Source: the human T2T-CHM13v2.0 reference genome, Homo sapiens
DNA: 64,000 bases
Strand: one strand, 5' to 3'
NCBI RefSeq assembly: GCF_009914755.1
Contig: NC_060928.1
Shown: piece after piece, positions 9,186 to 40,818 of the stretch
Position numbering within the stretch: the first letter of the stretch is position 1
How the letters are laid out: the number at the start of each line of letters is the position of its first letter
Notes under the pieces: generated by a model
The model's database searches: none
What the model was told of the DNA's origin: nothing
What the model saw: only the letters and a program-made list of their open reading frames with translations
Translations under genes and position numbers: made by a program

Positions 9186-11362
9186 ATGCATATGACAATT
9201 AATTGGGTTGGAGCAGATAAACAATCAAAAACAGCTTCTAACATAAATGTAGCATTTAAAACAAAAAAGGTACTATTATAAAATATTATGGGAGTATGGG
9301 CAGTCATAAGGGAGAATATAAACTAATTGCAGAGGGCTCCTTAGTGAAGCACAAGAGATATAGTATAATCTAGCTAGTCTATTACTTATTAAACTTTCAC
9401 GTATTGTCTACTTTTAACTTGTTTGATTTTGCTTTTATGAATTGGATGTACCATGGTACTGGATGATTTGTCAGGTCCTCCCGAAATACAATGTTACATA
9501 AAATAAATAGAGGTTTATGAAAGGCCAAGCAGTTGGATCAACTTCACTAACTAACATCAGACTACTTTCACAATATTTCAAAATAATGGACTACTTTTCC
9601 CTTTGGTTTACATAGCTTGATCCTTAAAGGTTATTAGCAAGTTTATCTACAAATCATAATTTTTAAATAATTATCTGAAACAATGTTTTAAGAATGTTTA
9701 ACAATTTCATCTAATAGGACCAGGATATAAGTATGCTGTACTTTCCATTATTGAAATGCACATGAGTTGATTTGATGAGTGTTTGGGGTGGGAGTGGTAG
9801 TGACAGGAGGTAAGAGGAAATGAGCTTGGGAAAATTCAAAAATGAAAATAAGGAAGGCAAAAGAGAAAGGCTGGAAACAACAAAAGCCCTAGAGGTTTTA
9901 CACACTTGGAACACTTAAGAGACAGCTTCCTAAGCTTGGTCATGAGTTTTATCATGACTGTATCCTTACTTGTTGCTTCCAGAAAAAGAAAATTATGTGA
10001 GACTTTGAGACTGATCAAAAATCTTATAACAGGGATAGAGGCAAAAACTAGAGAAACCGGGGTTATAAGTCAGATTGTAGACCATTTCATGTCCTCAAGC
10101 TGCTGTGATGTGAAACATGGAATGAGCACCACAGATAGCCTGAGTATCTATATTGTGCCAAATGTTGGTATAGATAACATGTCCTTCTAAAGACGTTTAC
10201 AAACCAAGCTAGAGGAAAGCAGCAAATGATGTTTCACCAACAGAAAAGTAAAGTAGAGACTACTAAGGCATCACAACTCAAGCATAATTTTTTACAAGAA
10301 TCAATTAAAAGAAGATGCGTATCTCTTGGTCCTGCAGATAAATGGTTAATGCGCTGAAGTGTGATGTTTAATTACCTCTTTTTTATTACCCTTCATTATT
10401 TTAGCTTTCATAGCTACACATGTTATGCTGGTCATAAAATTATATAGTCCATTTTAAGGTGCAGCTACAATATTTTCCTGGCTGATCTCCTGATGCAGAG
10501 TATTTTGCCAGTGGTCAACACTCCATGGGAATGTTTTCCTCCAATTGGTTACAAATTTATAGCCCTTAAACTTTACCAGTGTCATGTCATTAAACAGGGA
10601 AATCTATGTTCCTCTAACCAATTAAAACAGTTTCTAAATTCCAGCCTCCTCCATTTGATCACTCTACTTGACAAGATGAAGATAGTAATCTCAATTTTTA
10701 ATGTTTAAACATACAAAATCTTCTAAATATTATACAAAATCCATCTATATCAAATCCTCTCAAAAAGAGAAAATACATCAATTTGCAGAAAAGTGGCTCA
10801 CTTGTAGTGTACCCATGGTAAGAGCATTCAAAAAATATATATTTGTAAAATTTACTAGTAAATATTGGGAAGATTTTCAATGCAAAAACGTTTTACATTT
10901 TCGTAGTTTCACCAGTATAAAAAATACTATCTGAAACATATTAAGTGCAGAGTATAAATTGCTAACAATTAAAAGAAATTTCTGATTGACTTTATATCCA
11001 AATATTTTTAAATACCAATTTATTATTTTAAAAATTATTAGACTACATCATTCTGATATCTCTCTGTCTCTCTCCTCATATAGGAAGAAAATGTTATACT
11101 AATTAGCTAAATTCTAACATTTTAGTATGCAAACGTAAAAGAAAATAAAAGTATTTTTTCTTCTTCAAATTACATTTTTGTATGGTGCAAGTACTCTCAC
11201 ATGAGAAATATGTATATTTATATATGTATTATATATGCATGTGCTTATGCATTTATATATATAAGATATAGGATAAACAAATATTTCAAAATACAAAACA
11301 AAAAATATTGGCACATATTTTCAACTTCTACTTGATTATAGTACATAGAATGAAAAATTAAC

Positions 11363-11449
11363 ATTGGAATGGTGCAAAAGTAATTTCGGTTTTTGCCATT
11401 ACTTTTAATTACTTTTAAAAATCTCAATTACTTTCATACCAACCTAATA
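11363..11449. mobile_element. MADE1 (Hsmar1-derived MITE) with internal duplication of attactttta
   Basis: ggtgcaaaagtaatttcggtttttgccattac...caattactttcataccaacctaaTA; palindromic Hsmar1 TIRs. Confidence 0.9.
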
Positions 11450-30892: not shown

Positions 30893-32752
<1,860 letters not shown>

Positions 32753-32799
32753 TGTAAACTAAGGAACAAATAAGGCAAATTTGTCTCCTCCCTTGAGTT

Positions 32800-33045
32800 T
32801 AAAATTTATTTATATGGATATCATAAAATAGGAAAAATATATAAATATATAAATATACACATATGTGGGTAAATGTATGAATATATATACACATATGTAC
32901 ATGTATACCTCTATTTATATAGACATATATATGTAAATATATGCAAATATTTAAATTTATATTTAAATATTTAATATATAAATATTTGTATATTAAATAT
33001 TTATATATTATTAACATATATATTTACATATATATGTATATATAC
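32800..33045. repeat. (TA)-rich low-complexity repeat
   Basis: Degenerate atat/aaatat runs. Confidence 0.9.
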
Positions 33046-33054
33046 AGAGAATGG

Positions 33055-33356
33055 TATTAGGTCGGTGCAAACGTAATTGTGGTTTCTGCTGTTACAGTAT
33101 ATAAAAATGCTCAACTTCACTAAATATCAGGGAAATGAAAATCCAAACCATAATAACATTTCACCTCATTCCTGTTAGGATGGCTGCTATCAAAGATAAC
33201 AAGTGTTGACAAGGATGTGGAGAAAGTGAACCCTGGAACACTCTTGATGAGGATGTAAACTGGTACGGCCATTATGAAAAATTGTAGGGAGTTTCTTCAA
33301 AAAATAAAAATAGAGCTATCACATGATGCCACAATTACATTTGCACCAACCTAATA
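33055..33356. mobile_element. Composite MADE1: left arm 33057-33095, ~233-bp captured L1MA fragment 33096-33328, right arm 33329-33354, TA on both sides
   Basis: TA-ttaggtcggtgcaaacgtaattgtggtttctgctgttac | agtatataaaaatgctcaac...agagctatcacatgatg | ccacaattacatttgcaccaacctaa-TA. Confidence 0.92.
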
Positions 33357-33630
33357 GAATACTTTTCTTTTTTTTTTTCCTGCTCCTTAATTTTTTATTT
33401 TATTTTATTTTATTTTATTTTTATAAATTATACTTTCAGTTTTAGGGTACATGTGCACATTGTGCAGGTTAGTTACATATGTATACATGTGCCATGCTGG
33501 TGCGCTGCACCCACTAACTCGTCATCTAGCATTAGGTATATCTCCCAATGCTATCCCTCCCCCCTCCCCCACCCCACCACAGTCCCCAGAGTGTGATATT
33601 CCCCTTCCTGTGTCCATGTGATCTCATTGT

Positions 33631-37471
<3,841 letters not shown>

Positions 37472-37507
37472 TTAGTTGATGCAGTTTCTTCCTTGTCTTG
37501 ATGGTCT

Positions 37508-38524
37508 TTACATTTTGGCATGATTTTGCAGTGGCTGGTACTGGTTGTTCCTTTCCATGTTTAGCGCTTCCATAAGGAGCTCGTTTAGGGCAGGCCTGGT
37601 GGTGACAAAATCTCTCAGCATTTGCTTGTCTGTAAAGTATTTTATTTCTCCTTCACTTATGAAGCTTAGTTTGGCTGGATATGAAATTCTGGGTTGAAAA
37701 TTCTTTTCTTTAAGAATGTTGAATATTGGCCCCCACTCTCTTATGGTTTGTAGGGTTTCTGCTGAGACATCTGCTGTTAGTCTGATGGGCTTCCCTTTGA
37801 GGGTAACCCGACCTTTCTCTCTGGCTGCCCTTAACATTTTTTCCTTCATTTCAACTTTGGTGAATCTGACAAATATGTGTCTTGGAGTTGCTCTTCTCGA
37901 GGAGTATCTTTGTGGCGTTCTCTGTATTTCCTGAATCTGAACGTTGGCCTGCCTTGCTAGATTGGGGAAGTTCTCCTGGATAATATCCTGCAGAGTGTTT
38001 TCCAACTTGGTTCCATTCTCCCCATCACGTTCAGGTACACCAATCAGACATAGATTTGGTCTTTTCACATAGTCCCATATTTCTTGGAGGCTTTGCTCAT
38101 TTCTTTTTATTCTTTTTTCTCTAAACTTCCCTTCTCACTTCATTTCATTCATTTCATCTTCCATTGCTGATACCCTTTCTTCCAGGTGATCGCATTGGCT
38201 ACTGAGGCTTCTGCATTCTTCACGTAGTTCTCGAGCCTTGGTTTTCAGCTCCATCAGCTCCTTTAAGCACTTCTCTGTATTGGTTATTCTAGTTATACAT
38301 TCTTCTAAATTTTTTTCAAAGTTTTCATCTTCTTTGCCTTTGGTTTGAATGTCCTCCCGTAGCTCGGAGTAATTTGATCGTCTGAAGCCTTCTTCTCTCA
38401 GCTCGTCAAAGTCATTCTCCATCCAGCTTTGTTCCGTTGCTGGTGAGGAACTGCATTCCTTTGGAGGAGGAGAGGCGCTCTGCGTTTTAGAGTTTCCAGT
38501 TTTTCTGTTCTGTTTTTTCCCCAT
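37508..38524 (-). pseudogene. ORF1: L1 ORF1 (RNA-binding protein) with an in-frame nonsense codon
   Basis: MGKKQNRKTGNSK...QNHAKM spans 1017 nt (338 codons plus stop) in one frame. There is a premature TGA at 38135-38137 (codon 130, CGA>TGA-type). Confidence 0.96.
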
Positions 38525-39431
38525 CTTTGTGGTTTTATCTACTTTTGTTTCTTTGATGATGGTGATGTACAGATGGGTTTTTGGTGTGGATGTCCTTTCT
38601 GTTTGTTAGTTTTCCTTCTAACAGACAGGACCCTCAGCTGCAGGTCTGTTGGAATACCCTGCCGTGTGAGGTGTCAGTGTGCTCCTGCTGGGGGGGTGCC
38701 TCCCAGTTAGGCTACTCGGGGGTCAGGGGTCAGGGACCCACTTGAGGAGGCAGTCTGTCCGTTCTCAGATCTCCAGCTGCATGCTGGGAGAACCACTGCT
38801 CTCTTCAAAGCTGTCAGACAGGGACATTTAAGTCTGCAGAGGTTACTGCTGTCTTTTTGTTTGTCTGTGCCCTGGCCCCAGAGGTGGAGCCTACAGAGGC
38901 AGGCAGGCCTCCTTGAGCTGTGGTGGGCTCCACCCAGTTCCAGCTTCCCGCTGCTTTGTTTACCTAATCAAGCCTGGGCAATGGCGGGCGCCCCTCCCCC
39001 AGCCTCGCTGCTGCCTTGCAGTTTGATCTCAGACTGCTGTGCTAGCAATCAGCGAGACTCTGTGGGCGTAGGACCCTCCGAGCCAGGTGCGGGATATAAT
39101 CTCGTGGTGCGCTGGTTTTTAAGCCGGTCCAAAAAGCACAATATTCGGGTGGGAGTGACCCGATTTTCCAGGTGTGTCCATCACCCCTGTCTTTGACTCG
39201 GAAAGGGAACTCCCTGAACCCTGGCGCTTCCCGAGTGAGGCAATGCCTCACCCTGCTTCGGCTTGCGCACGGTGGGTGCACCCACTGACCTGCGCCCACT
39301 GTCTGGCACTCCCTAGTGAGATGAACCCGGTACCTCAGATGGAAATGCAGAAATCACCCGTCTTCTGCGTCGCTCACGCTGGGAGCTGTAGAACGGAGCT
39401 GTTCCTATTCGGCCATCTTGGCTCCTCCCCC
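38525..39431. promoter_or_regulatory. L1 5' UTR with sense and antisense promoters, CpG-rich
   Basis: Intact YY1 motif AAGATGGCCG at the 5' end (ggccatcttg 39411-39420). It is the main CpG-rich block in the window outside the Alus. Confidence 0.85.
38981..39196 (+). CDS. ORF0: L1 antisense ORF0, intact 71 aa
   Basis: gcaATGg Kozak context; MAGAPPPASLLPCSLISDCCASNQRDSVGVGPSEPGAGYNLVVRWFLSRSKKHNIRVGVTRFSRCVHHPCL*; 216 nt. Expression is unknown. Confidence 0.75.
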   Translation: MAGAPPPASLLPCSLISDCCASNQRDSVGVGPSEPGAGYNLVVRWFLSRSKKHNIRVGVTRFSRCVHHPCL

Positions 39432-40818
39432 AGAATACTTTTCTTAGAGAAGAGATGCTGCTTTGTCCCTTAAAACTTAGTATAGTATATGATTCTTGAA
39501 GTAAGGACCATGTCTTATTCCTCATTATAATTTCTTAACACATTCCTCAAAGCTCACTCTAGGAACTTTACATAGAGAAGGTAGTTTAAAAATACTTTAG
39601 GAAACATACACCTCTAAAAGTTACCTAACCTAAAGATTACTCAGACACACTTTGCCTTGTGTAGAATATTTGAAATATATTAAGAGGAGAATATTCTCTT
39701 CCAATAACATTTCTCATTATCTTTAGTTTACACCTTCTGACTCAATTGTTTATGAAGAGGAACTCACTGAGAAAACCTAAAGCTTTCAGCAGAATTATTT
39801 TGAATTAATCATCAAACTAATATAACTTCTGGAAAAAATAATTTCTAAAGTCGAGTTTAATGCTACTCTTCATTAATGGTTACAAATTTTTTTTTAAGGA
39901 AAACAAAGTAGAAAACATAGTAAAAGTCTTGTGAAGTTTTCAACTGTTTTTGTTTTATTTCTGTTTTCATCTGTCCCTAAGACGTGGACAAAGTAATGTT
40001 TACAAGTAGTTTATAATTTTCTAATTCTTAGGTTTGCTTCTTTTGTTATTTTCAAAATATACTAAGTAGAATATTGGTTGTTTGCTACACTCCTGATGTA
40101 CATATAAAAAATAAAATAATTAATGAGTATTACCTGGGTATTTTCTATGATTGGAGTCTGCTTTGTCGTGTTATATTTTACAGTGAACTTAATACAAGTC
40201 TACATAAGTTAATATTGGAGCCTATTCATCAATAACCCCGTCACAGACCCTGTGTAATTTCTACTCATTGCTATATTATGGGCAAAGATTTTCTAATATA
40301 GTTATATAATCATGATTGTAGAAAAAAACCACAGAAGTTTTTTTTTTTGGTTGTTTATCTTTAATTAGTGTGTCTGAAAAATTATATCTATTGCATGAGG
40401 TATGAATTTTATACAACCGTTAATACCGTGATGGAATAGGTCACTCAATAACATTAATTAAATTAGTACAAAAGAAATCTTTTGGGGTTTATCTTTTATT
40501 AGAAATTTAAAAATATATATTCGTTGAGATTATTTTATGTAAGTAACACCTATCATATACCTAAATGCTACAATTTGAAAGTAGAAAAGAGCTATCAGAA
40601 TAGGTTTAAGGAATATTCAATGATTCTAAGCAATATGTTTTTGAGACCTGTTATGTCATGTTAATATGATAAATATGCAAAGTTGTTACATTAGCATCAC
40701 ATACTTTCTATATCCCCCTAATAATGTCATTTTTTTAACTCCCTTTATAACGGGTCTTACACCCTCTATTATCAATAAAAGTTAATGAAAATTCATAATA
40801 CTACCCATTTGGGGAGTA

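What the first reader, a model, noticed from the sequence alone, without database searches (positions are those of the whole stretch)
33055..33356. MADE1 mariner MITE that captured an inverted copy of neighbouring DNA (Pack-MITE-like templated insertion, datable by an Alu)
Seen: both MADE1 arms and both TA flanks are present, but ~15 bp of the centre is replaced by 233 bp of L1 ORF2 sequence with no poly(A) tail or TSD, so this is not an ordinary L1 insertion. The filler is nearly the reverse complement of the L1MA ~1 kb to the left (31900-32132 plus 31565-31582). The two share changes I recall as non-consensus: gctcaacTtcac, gaaatgAaaatc, ccaTaatAa, ctcaTTcc, ggctGCtatc, gttgAcAagg, cttgAtgAgGatgtaaaCtgg, attatgAaaaaTTg, gagTttcTtc. 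The copy runs straight across the site now occupied by AluSc (31583-31899), so it predates that Alu. At the right junction the donor continues catgatCCAGCAATT, which resembles MADE1 CCGCAATT; at the left junction donor acAGATATAT meets MADE1 ttAC. Inference: a break within the MADE1 (Hsmar1 excision or hairpin cleavage) was repaired by abortive gap repair/SDSA with a template switch to nearby DNA. The product is a two-TIR cassette with cargo that could in principle have been mobilised, plus a ~230-bp local inverted repeat. Such capture is established for plant Pack-MULE/Ds and Drosophila P elements; I do not know whether this primate locus has been described.
Basis: partly seen in the sequence, partly recalled or inferred. 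Interest (0 to 1): 0.8.

Follow-up and report, generated by a model that had tools for sequence, protein, structure and literature searches.

The report
MADE1 transposon patched with neighbouring DNA
An 80-base MADE1 transposon relic on human chromosome 4 broke in its middle long ago and was mended by copying 233 bases, in reverse, from an old L1 element 1 kb away, a real and datable example of a repair scar that has already been described in animals.

Summary
Window 33057-33354 is one MADE1 with TA on both sides. It keeps 38 nt of the left arm and 26 nt of the right arm. About 16 central nt are replaced by 233 nt of L1 ORF2 sequence with no A-tail and no target duplication.

The filler is an inverted copy of the L1 at 31565-32132:
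- The donor is the best genome hit (86%; next best 80%).
- Filler and donor share 21-25 changes absent from other L1 copies, against 12-13 private ones each.
- They are sisters at 100/100 among 55 copies.
- The copy crosses the site now holding an Alu, so it predates that Alu.

Junctions show 2 nt (AC) and 6 nt (GCAATT) of microhomology.

The kind is already published as animal "Pack-TIRs" made by gap filling (Tan et al. 2021, PMC8277862). Their human list has 33 cases, one of them a MADE1. This locus is not listed and would fail their filters.

No second copy of the cassette exists, so it was not mobilised. A partial survey found seven more unlisted MADE1s with locally templated fillers. This is a new member of a known kind, of modest interest.

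The parts
33055..33056 (.). Left TA target-site duplication of the MADE1
   Evidence: Read. TA precedes TTAGG, as in the majority of 38 other arms.
33057..33094 (+). MADE1 left arm, positions 1-38. Base 33095 (C) could be MADE1 or donor.
   Evidence: 31 of 35 firm columns match the majority of 38 other MADE1 arms; the arm core occurs 3 times in the window against 0 expected.
33096..33328 (+). Filler: 233 nt of L1 ORF2 3' part, sense on the + strand, an inverted copy of the local L1. Base 33328 (G) is explained by neither donor nor MADE1.
   Evidence: Translation shows a decayed ORF2-like frame. The homologous stretch of the neighbouring L1 lies downstream of its RT domain.
33329..33354 (+). 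MADE1 right arm, terminal 26 nt
   Evidence: 24 of 25 firm columns match. pair I7: pairs with the left arm at 86% over 35 nt.
33355..33356 (.). Right TA target-site duplication
31900..32132 (-). Donor, main part: the stretch of the old minus-strand L1 that was copied. It carries a 9-nt tandem extra (AAAAAGATA) that the filler lacks.
   Evidence: Best genome hit of the filler.
31565..31582 (-). Donor, distal part, left of the Alu. The next bases (31555-31564, read as CCAGCAATTC in filler orientation) give the exit microhomology.
   Evidence: (pair I5)
31583..31899 (-). Alu inserted into the donor after the copy was made. Its A-rich tail and target duplication blur the left boundary by about 15 nt.
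   Evidence: Non-CpG divergence is 13/232 from the majority of 48 other Alus.
32133..33054 (.). Spacer between donor and MADE1: the rest of the old L1 plus an AT-rich simple repeat (about 32794-33051)
   Evidence: families D2, D4 against the neighbouring L1; D3, D5 for the simple repeat

Best explanation
One MADE1 MITE inserted at a TA next to an old, already decayed minus-strand L1. Later the MADE1 was interrupted near the centre of its palindrome, either by a double-strand break or by a stalled fork.

A free 3' end then primed on 2 nt (AC) of the L1 about 1 kb away on the same chromosome. It copied about 233-250 nt of that L1 in inverted orientation. It returned to the other MADE1 half through the near-identical run CCAGCAATT / CCGCAATT (6 nt exact). 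About 16 central MADE1 nt were lost.

The result is a single-copy 'Pack-TIR' with both transposon ends, both TA flanks and foreign cargo, made by gap filling and not by transposition. An Alu later split the donor. The cassette never moved and has no sign of function.

Shown: the anatomy, the donor-copy relation, the order L1 decay > copy > Alu, the microhomologies, and single-copy status.

Inferred: the break, its position, the direction of synthesis, and that the trigger was transposase-independent. I put the transposase-independent trigger at about 60-65% given the core claim. The confidence below is for the core claim, a locally templated repair insertion inside one MADE1.
For: Donor-copy relation:
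- The local L1 is the best genome hit at 86%, against at most 80% for the other 38 scored places.
- Ungapped identity is 88.4% between filler and donor, against a mean of 77-78% (maximum 82%) to 28 other copies.
- Shared-derived sites number 21, against 12 filler-only and 13 donor-only.
- With 25 outgroups picked by likeness to the donor instead, the counts are 25 / 12 / 13.
- Filler and donor are sisters at 100/100 support in a tree of 55 rows.
- The donor L1 is itself only 70-74% like its best relatives elsewhere, so the shared sites are copy-specific decay and not a subfamily signature.

One MADE1, not two halves:
- The arms are complementary parts of one element, positions 1-38 and the last 26 nt, with TA on both sides.

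Not retrotransposition:
- There is no A-tail and no target duplication.

Order of events:
- The filler is continuous across the Alu site.
- Private divergence is 12/223 for the filler and 13/223 for the donor. This is about the Alu's 13/232 non-CpG divergence.

Microhomology:
- A 6-nt run (GCAATT) lies at the exit. Only 3 of 1024 positions of the local L1 reach that length.
- AC lies at the entry.

The process recurs:
- Of 11 other-sized MADE1s tested, 8 (this one included) have a filler whose donor lies within 5.2 kb on the same chromosome.

Published model:
- Tan et al. 2021 report single-copy Pack-TIRs with cis bias (mostly under 5 kb), microhomology, internal breakpoints, and most human cases arising after DNA transposons went silent (sections read).
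Against: - No orthologous primate locus could be examined. The intact MADE1 before the capture is therefore inferred, not seen.
- One base at the right junction (G, 33328) fits neither template. The 4 nt before CAATT match neither the donor (3 mismatches) nor MADE1 (2 mismatches) cleanly. The exact crossover is unresolved.
- Genome searches scored only 40 of 3934 and 40 of 11565 candidates. A closer L1 elsewhere is unlikely but not strictly excluded.
- On the trigger: the event's age (about 5.5% per lineage) is not clearly later than Hsmar1 activity.
- MADE1 arm divergence (5/60) is not significantly above that of the filler (12/223).
- My survey could only find breakpoints in MADE1 positions 24-57 by design, so 'central breaks' in the other loci are partly an ascertainment effect.
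Confidence: 0.88

Rival explanations
1. Same product, different trigger. Hsmar1 transposase cut the MADE1, by excision or by an abortive or single-end cut. Gap repair from the sister copy aborted and switched template to the nearby L1, as in P-element and Ac/Ds filler events.
For: The private divergence of filler and donor, about 5.5% each, equals that of an AluS-type insertion. By recalled calibration that is near the end of Hsmar1 activity, about 37 My or earlier as cited by Tan et al. (passage). Gap repair after excision is an established source of internally deleted, filler-bearing elements (recalled; Tan et al. cite the P-element case).
Against: - Both ends and both TA flanks are intact, and only about 16 of 80 nt are lost from the middle.
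- Tan et al. argue that excision-triggered repair should give larger, end-biased gaps. They date 22 of 33 human Pack-TIRs to after DNA transposons fell silent.
- Two sibling loci are only about 3-3.5% diverged per lineage: L062 at 94% and L061 at 93%. That looks younger than this Alu-age event, so the process does not need the transposase.
Confidence: 0.25
2. RNA-mediated capture. A read-through transcript of the dead local L1 was reverse-transcribed and its cDNA was captured at a break in the MADE1. This would be an endonuclease-independent L1-type or templated-sequence insertion.
For: The filler lacks an A-tail and target duplication. Both are also typical of endonuclease-independent insertions (recalled). 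The filler carries the donor's private changes, which an RNA copy would also carry.
Against: - The donor is 1 kb away on the same chromosome.
- Seven sibling MADE1 fillers, six of them unique non-repeat DNA, all have donors within 5.2 kb. That cis bias is what DNA-templated repair predicts and is not expected of cDNA capture.
- Both junctions have microhomology to the DNA that flanks the copied stretch.
Confidence: 0.04
3. No copying at all. An unrelated L1 fragment sits between two independent MADE1 half-elements, or an ordinary L1 insertion landed in a MADE1, and its likeness to the local L1 is family resemblance.
For: Both pieces belong to the same old L1 family and the same ORF2 region, so some likeness is expected (many hits at 75-80%).
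Against: - 21-25 shared derived sites, and sister grouping at 100/100.
- The donor is 86-88% like the filler but only 70-74% like its best relatives elsewhere.
- No A-tail or target duplication.
- The arms are complementary parts of one element with TA flanks.
Confidence: 0.02

Closest known systems
Animal Pack-TIRs made by transposition-independent gap filling (Tan et al. 2021, Nat Commun, PMC8277862). I read the abstract, sections 8 and 14, passages, and Supplementary Data 1 (parts 2-3), 3 and 4.
   Same: - Two pieces of one TIR element, with its target duplication, flank a 100-5000 nt copy of host DNA.
- The product is single copy.
- The parental copy lies on the same chromosome within 5 kb.
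- Breakpoints carry microhomology and lie inside the element, not at its ends.
- MADE1 is among the elements listed: 7 rows in Supplementary Data 1 (count), one of them human (chr8).
   Different: This locus is not among their 33 human cases. It would fail at least three of their filters:
- Identity to the parent is 86-88%, below their 90% cut-off.
- The parent is now split by an Alu, so the length ratio falls outside 80-120%.
- The parent lies inside another TE.

The cargo is itself a decayed L1, not unique or genic DNA. The event is older than most of theirs. Their relaxed set of 199 human candidates is not listed in the supplements I saw, so I cannot say whether it includes this locus.
Filler DNA and flanking-DNA capture at P-element and Ac/Ds excision sites; plant Pack-MULEs (recalled; cited within Tan et al.)
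   Same: An element keeps both ends and acquires host DNA internally through interrupted repair synthesis and template switching.
   Different: Those events follow transposase cutting, and Pack-MULEs are often multicopy and mobilised. Here nothing shows transposase involvement, and the cassette is single copy.
Template-switch mutations, FoSTeS/MMBIR, and fold-back inverted duplications at breaks. Search listing and abstracts only: PMC7954356, PMC8421209, PMC11724301.
   Same: Microhomology-primed copying of nearby sequence gives a local inverted repeat that replaces a few original bases.
   Different: Short-range template switches are usually tens of bases copied from within about 100 nt. Here 233 nt were copied from about 1 kb away, and the site is a transposon palindrome.
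Ordinary or endonuclease-independent L1 insertion (recalled)
   Same: A piece of L1 ORF2 lies inside another repeat.
   Different: There is no A-tail and no target duplication. The piece carries the private mutations of the dead copy next door.

Membership tests
MADE1 (Hsmar1-derived MITE) | Terminal inverted repeats of the MADE1 sequence at both ends | tested here: met
   left arm 31/35 and right arm 24/25 firm columns match the majority of 38 other MADE1 arms., pair I7: the two arms pair at 86%.
MADE1 (Hsmar1-derived MITE) | TA target-site duplication | tested here: met
   TA at 33055-56 and 33355-56
MADE1 (Hsmar1-derived MITE) | About 80-nt palindromic body | tested here: not met
   The element is 298 nt long. 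About 16 central nt are replaced by 233 nt of L1. The mir-548 model finds the window's other MADE1 but not this one. This is the finding itself, not an argument against MADE1 origin.
Pack-TIR (criteria of Tan et al. 2021) | Internal sequence of 100-5000 nt flanked by two pieces of the same TIR element, each covering at least 10 nt of its terminus | tested here: met
   233 nt between arms of 38 and 26 terminal nt
Pack-TIR (criteria of Tan et al. 2021) | A unique best parental copy elsewhere in the genome | tested here: met
   the local L1 scores 269 bits and the next hit 212. Only 40 of 3934 candidates were scored.
Pack-TIR (criteria of Tan et al. 2021) | At least 90% identity to the parent, length ratio 80-120%, and no TE within 100 nt of the parent (their cut-offs for young, clean cases) | tested here: not met
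   Identity is 86-88%. The parent is split by a 317-nt Alu and is embedded in an L1. These are ascertainment filters, not features of the mechanism.
Gap-filling origin (as opposed to transposition) | Single copy, parent in cis within a few kb, microhomology at breakpoints, small internal gap in the TE | tested here: met
   Single copy. Parent 1-1.5 kb away. 2-nt and 6-nt microhomologies. 16 of 80 nt lost.
Gap-filling origin (as opposed to transposition) | The plain TE without cargo is present at the orthologous site of outgroup species | not testable with these tools
   No primate genomes are held.
Mobilised Pack-MITE / Pack-MULE-like family | Further copies of the same arms-plus-cargo cassette elsewhere in the genome | tested here: not met
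   apart from itself and the donor, no hit exceeds 80% identity.
L1 retrotransposition (target-primed) | 3' poly(A) tail and flanking target-site duplication | tested here: not met
   The filler ends ...CATGATG against the MADE1 arm. MADE1 bases are lost, not duplicated.

The most novel reading that the evidence does not exclude
MADE1 palindromes may be recurrent, long-lived hot spots for templated insertion in primate genomes. The published survey missed them because of its identity and repeat filters.

In a partial scan, 8 of 11 tested size-expanded MADE1s carry a copy of DNA from within 5.2 kb, against 1540 normal-sized elements under the same arm criterion. Their filler-donor identities range from 85% to 94%.

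If the events continued after Hsmar1 died out, then something intrinsic keeps breaking or stalling replication there. Candidates are hairpin or cruciform formation at the 80-nt palindrome, or binding of the domesticated transposase SETMAR to the TIRs.
Probability: 0.2. Interest if true: 0.55.

Novelty: new member of a known kind. Interest (0 to 1): 0.3.

Why it matters
It is a clean, internally dated fossil of a microhomology-primed template switch in the primate germ line. The donor's own decay before the copy (21-25 sites) and the Alu that later split the donor bracket the event without needing other genomes. The six-base return microhomology is unusually clear.

It does not reveal a new mechanism, because Tan et al. 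2021 described this class in animals and in humans. Its practical value is as evidence that older, repeat-derived cargo is missed by the published filters. Together with the seven sibling loci found here, it gives a starting set for asking whether MADE1 palindromes break more often than other DNA, and why. There is no sign of transcription, coding or regulatory function at the locus.

Tried and rejected
- An exact-match pattern for gap 200-230 found nothing, so I allowed 2 mismatches.
- The survey covered only gaps 161-190, 191-220 and 230-260 plus the normal size class 25-50. Gaps 51-160, 221-229 and above 260 were not scanned.
- An inverted-orientation bias looked likely after (4 inverted, 1 direct within 1.5 kb). 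It vanished once donors further away were found, giving 4 inverted and 4 direct. I dropped the idea that fold-back priming is the general rule.
- Folding the window's other MADE1 as single-stranded DNA gave a weak hairpin (z -1.5), because that copy is decayed. It says nothing about the ancestral palindrome.
- Folding the cassette only shows the arms pairing.
- Rfam gave no useful match at the locus.
- Comparing arm divergence (5/60) with filler divergence (12/223) to show a lag between MADE1 insertion and capture was inconclusive.
- Twin priming was considered and rejected. The filler duplicates the same ORF2 stretch as the donor and does not continue it.

Full report
**What is there**

The sequence reads, left to right:
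- an AT-rich simple repeat;
- TA (33055-56);
- TTAGGTCGGTGCAAACGTAATTGTGGTTTCTGCTGTTA(C) (33057-33094/5);
- 233 nt of L1-like sequence (about 33096-33328);
- CCACAATTACATTTGCACCAACCTAA (33329-33354);
- TA (33355-56);
- after 8-10 nt, the T-run of a long minus-strand L1.

Against their column majority:
- The left arm follows the majority through position 38, with 4 of 35 firm columns different.
- The right arm follows it through 26 nt, with 1 of 25 different.

The two arms are therefore complementary parts of a single 80-nt element that has lost about 16 central nt. The arm core occurs three times in the window against none expected.

**The filler is a copy of the neighbouring L1**

- The repeat finder gives inverted arms 31899-32025 / 33189-33315 (127 nt, 91%) and 32029-32125 / 33098-33194 (97 nt, 87%). 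A third pair, 31550-31593 / 33299-33342 (80%), lies on the far side of the Alu at 31583-31899.
- A search of the whole assembly with the filler (40 of 3934 first-look candidates scored) puts the local L1 first at 86% including gaps, E 8e-70. The next place is 80% and the remaining 37 are 75-79%.
- I aligned filler and donor with those 28 fetched copies and scored 223 columns. 176 are the same in all three classes. In 21, filler and donor share a base that differs from the majority of the others. 12 are private to the filler, 13 are private to the donor, and 1 differs three ways.
- To avoid bias from choosing outgroups by likeness to the filler, I repeated the count with 25 copies (of 29 loci) chosen by likeness to 861 nt of the donor L1. 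This gave 25 shared, 12 filler-only and 13 donor-only.
- In a maximum-likelihood tree of all 55 rows, filler and donor are sisters with 100/100 support.
- The donor L1 is only 70-74% like its best relatives elsewhere. The shared sites are therefore the private decay of this one copy and not a subfamily signature.

**Not a retrotransposition, not mobilised**

The filler has no A-tail. MADE1 bases are missing at the junctions, not duplicated. It is the sense strand of the ORF2 part downstream of the reverse-transcriptase domain:
- Its counterpart in the neighbouring L1 lies at about 34050-34290, within the ORF at 33982-34491.
- That ORF follows the RT-bearing ORF at 34545-36161 and the endonuclease-bearing ORF at 36275-37444.
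- The filler's own frame is decayed, with stops.

No other place in the genome resembles the cassette beyond ordinary L1 family likeness, so there is no evidence that it ever moved.

**Order of events and age**

- The 21-25 shared sites show that the L1 had already diverged by about 9-11% when it was copied.
- The filler runs uninterrupted across the point where the donor now carries an Alu with its A-rich tail. The copy therefore predates that Alu.
- Since the copy, the filler has gained 12/223 private changes and the donor 13/223.
- The Alu differs from the column majority of 48 other Alus at 13/232 non-CpG sites. That figure includes any subfamily-diagnostic sites.

These numbers agree with the structural order but do not add resolution. 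By recalled primate calibrations they mean some tens of millions of years, near the end of the period when Hsmar1 was active.

**Junctions**

- At the left, the arm ends ...GTTAC and the donor reads ...CAAC|AGATATAT. Two bases (AC) are shared.
- At the right, the donor continues CCAGCAATTC after the last copied base, and the MADE1 resumes CCGCAATTAC. They share a 6-nt run, GCAATT, at a shift of one base.
- Only 3 of 1024 positions along the local L1 offer as long a run.
- One base (G, 33328) fits neither template, so the exact crossover is unresolved.
- A sibling locus (L074) returns to its MADE1 at the same CAATT and has lost the same central stretch.

**Mechanism**

The simplest account has four steps:
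1. The MADE1 was interrupted near its centre.
2. A 3' end primed on minimal homology in the L1 about 1 kb away.
3. It synthesised about 233-250 nt.
4. It annealed back to the other MADE1 half through the fortuitous CCAGCAATT / CCGCAATT match.

Because the copy is inverted and the donor lies to the left, there are three possible templates:
- the same strand folded back after resection;
- the lagging-strand template behind a stalled fork;
- a sister duplex.

The sequence cannot tell these apart, and the direction of synthesis is inferred.

**Is it known?**

Yes, as a kind. Tan et al. 2021 (PMC8277862) describe 370 'Pack-TIRs' in 100 animal genomes. I read the abstract, sections 8 and 14, passages, and Supplementary Data 1 (parts 2-3), 3 and 4. 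Their main points:
- 33 of the cases are in humans.
- Single-copy cases arise by transposition-independent gap filling.
- Their evidence is cis bias (most parents within 5 kb), microhomology at breakpoints, plain TEs at orthologous sites of outgroups, and small internal gaps.
- MADE1 appears in 7 rows of Supplementary Data 1 (count). The one human case is on chr8 with a chr10 parent.

No chr4 locus is in the human list. Their pipeline would all exclude this locus. It requires at least 90% identity and a length ratio of 80-120%. It discards parents with TEs within 100 nt. A relaxed set of 199 human candidates is mentioned but not listed in the files I saw.

Searches for MADE1 / Hsmar1 / filler, for templated insertion / transposon excision / template switch and for Pack-TIR turned up no other description. 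The library lacks most subscription journals.

**A partial survey**

I scanned the assembly for the two MADE1 arm cores (16 nt each, at most 2 mismatches in all) with different inner gaps:

| Inner gap (nt) | Places found |
|---|---|
| 230-260 | 9 (this locus included) |
| 191-220 | 7 |
| 161-190 | 7 (two are an X/Y pair with the same preview) |
| 25-50 (normal size) | 1540 |

Of the 23 expanded places I tested 11 for a donor (then genome searches). Eight have a filler whose best or only other copy lies within 5.2 kb on the same chromosome:

| Locus | Orientation | Identity | Donor distance |
|---|---|---|---|
| This locus | inverted | 86-88% | about 1 kb |
| L061 (C1:241010643) | inverted | 93% | about 0.4 kb |
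| L071 (C2:116190968) | inverted | 88% | about 0.8 kb |
| L074 (C3:118493633) | inverted | 91% | about 0.2 kb |
| L072 (C3:168676933) | direct | 88% | 1.2 kb |
| L062 (C4:13091897; also L1 cargo, next-best hit 84%) | direct | 94% | 1.55 kb |
| L070 (C4:164288136) | direct | 85% | 2.1 kb |
| L075 (C12:126930400) | direct | 89% | 5.1 kb |

For six of the seven siblings, the filler and its donor are the only two places in the genome.

The other three tested loci had no donor. L067 has an AT-rich simple filler, which I did not search genome-wide. L073 and L076 have extra MADE1 pieces inside.

Twelve places were not tested:
- four Alu insertions and one pair of separate MADE1s, read;
- seven judged or left aside from 80-nt previews only.

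None of the seven siblings matches the human list of Tan et al. by chromosome and element family.

Two caveats apply. The arm criterion confines detectable breakpoints to MADE1 positions 24-57. The gap classes 51-160, 221-229 and above 260 were not scanned.

**Trigger**

Several points favour a transposase-independent break:
- Both ends and both TA flanks are intact.
- The central loss is small.
- The sibling events span 85-94% filler-donor identity.
- Tan et al. date 22 of 33 human Pack-TIRs to after DNA transposons fell silent.

For this locus alone the age does not exclude Hsmar1. I put about 25% on a transposase-linked trigger.

**Verdict**

The finding is a new, older, repeat-cargo member of a published class. 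It has no sign of function or mobilisation. Interest is modest. The recurrent MADE1 cases are the part most worth following up.

Noticed in passing
L061 (G000:C1:241010643-241010932); L071 (C2:116190968-116191214); L074 (C3:118493633-118493828); L072 (C3:168676933-168677163); L062 (C4:13091897-13092176); L070 (C4:164288136-164288368); L075 (C12:126930400-126930594): Seven other MADE1 elements carry a filler copied from DNA 0.2-5.1 kb away on the same chromosome (3 inverted, 4 direct; 85-94% identity). None is in the human Pack-TIR list of Tan et al. 2021. L062 also carries a piece of a neighbouring L1, from the ORF2 5' part by my reading.
   Followed up: partly
L073 (G000:C6:53670727-53670971) and L076 (C3:183366054-183366300): These MADE1 elements are enlarged by extra partial copies of MADE1 itself, arranged as nested or repeated palindrome pieces. 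L061 and L070 also show short repeated centre pieces beside their fillers, which suggests several template switches in one event.
   Followed up: no
window 11362-11449: A second, decayed MADE1 of normal size. It matches the Rfam mir-548 precursor model below threshold (40 bits, gathering 90).
   Followed up: partly
window 33357-39434, minus strand: A long L1 sits directly right of the MADE1. Its T-run starts about 10 nt from the TA. ORF2 is split into at least three open pieces: endonuclease 36275-37444, RT 34545-36161, and C-terminal part 33982-34491. The subfamily (reader: L1PA2) was not tested.
   Followed up: partly
window 32063-32080 (donor) against 33189-33194 (filler): The donor has 9 extra bases (a tandem AAAAAGATA-type repeat) that the filler lacks. 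Either the donor gained a small duplication after the copy or the filler lost them.
   Followed up: no
window 32794-33051: An AT-rich, imperfect TATA/TATG-type simple repeat with many short direct and inverted repeats lies immediately left of the MADE1 (families D3, D5, I4-I17). It may itself be a fragile or slippage-prone context.
   Followed up: no
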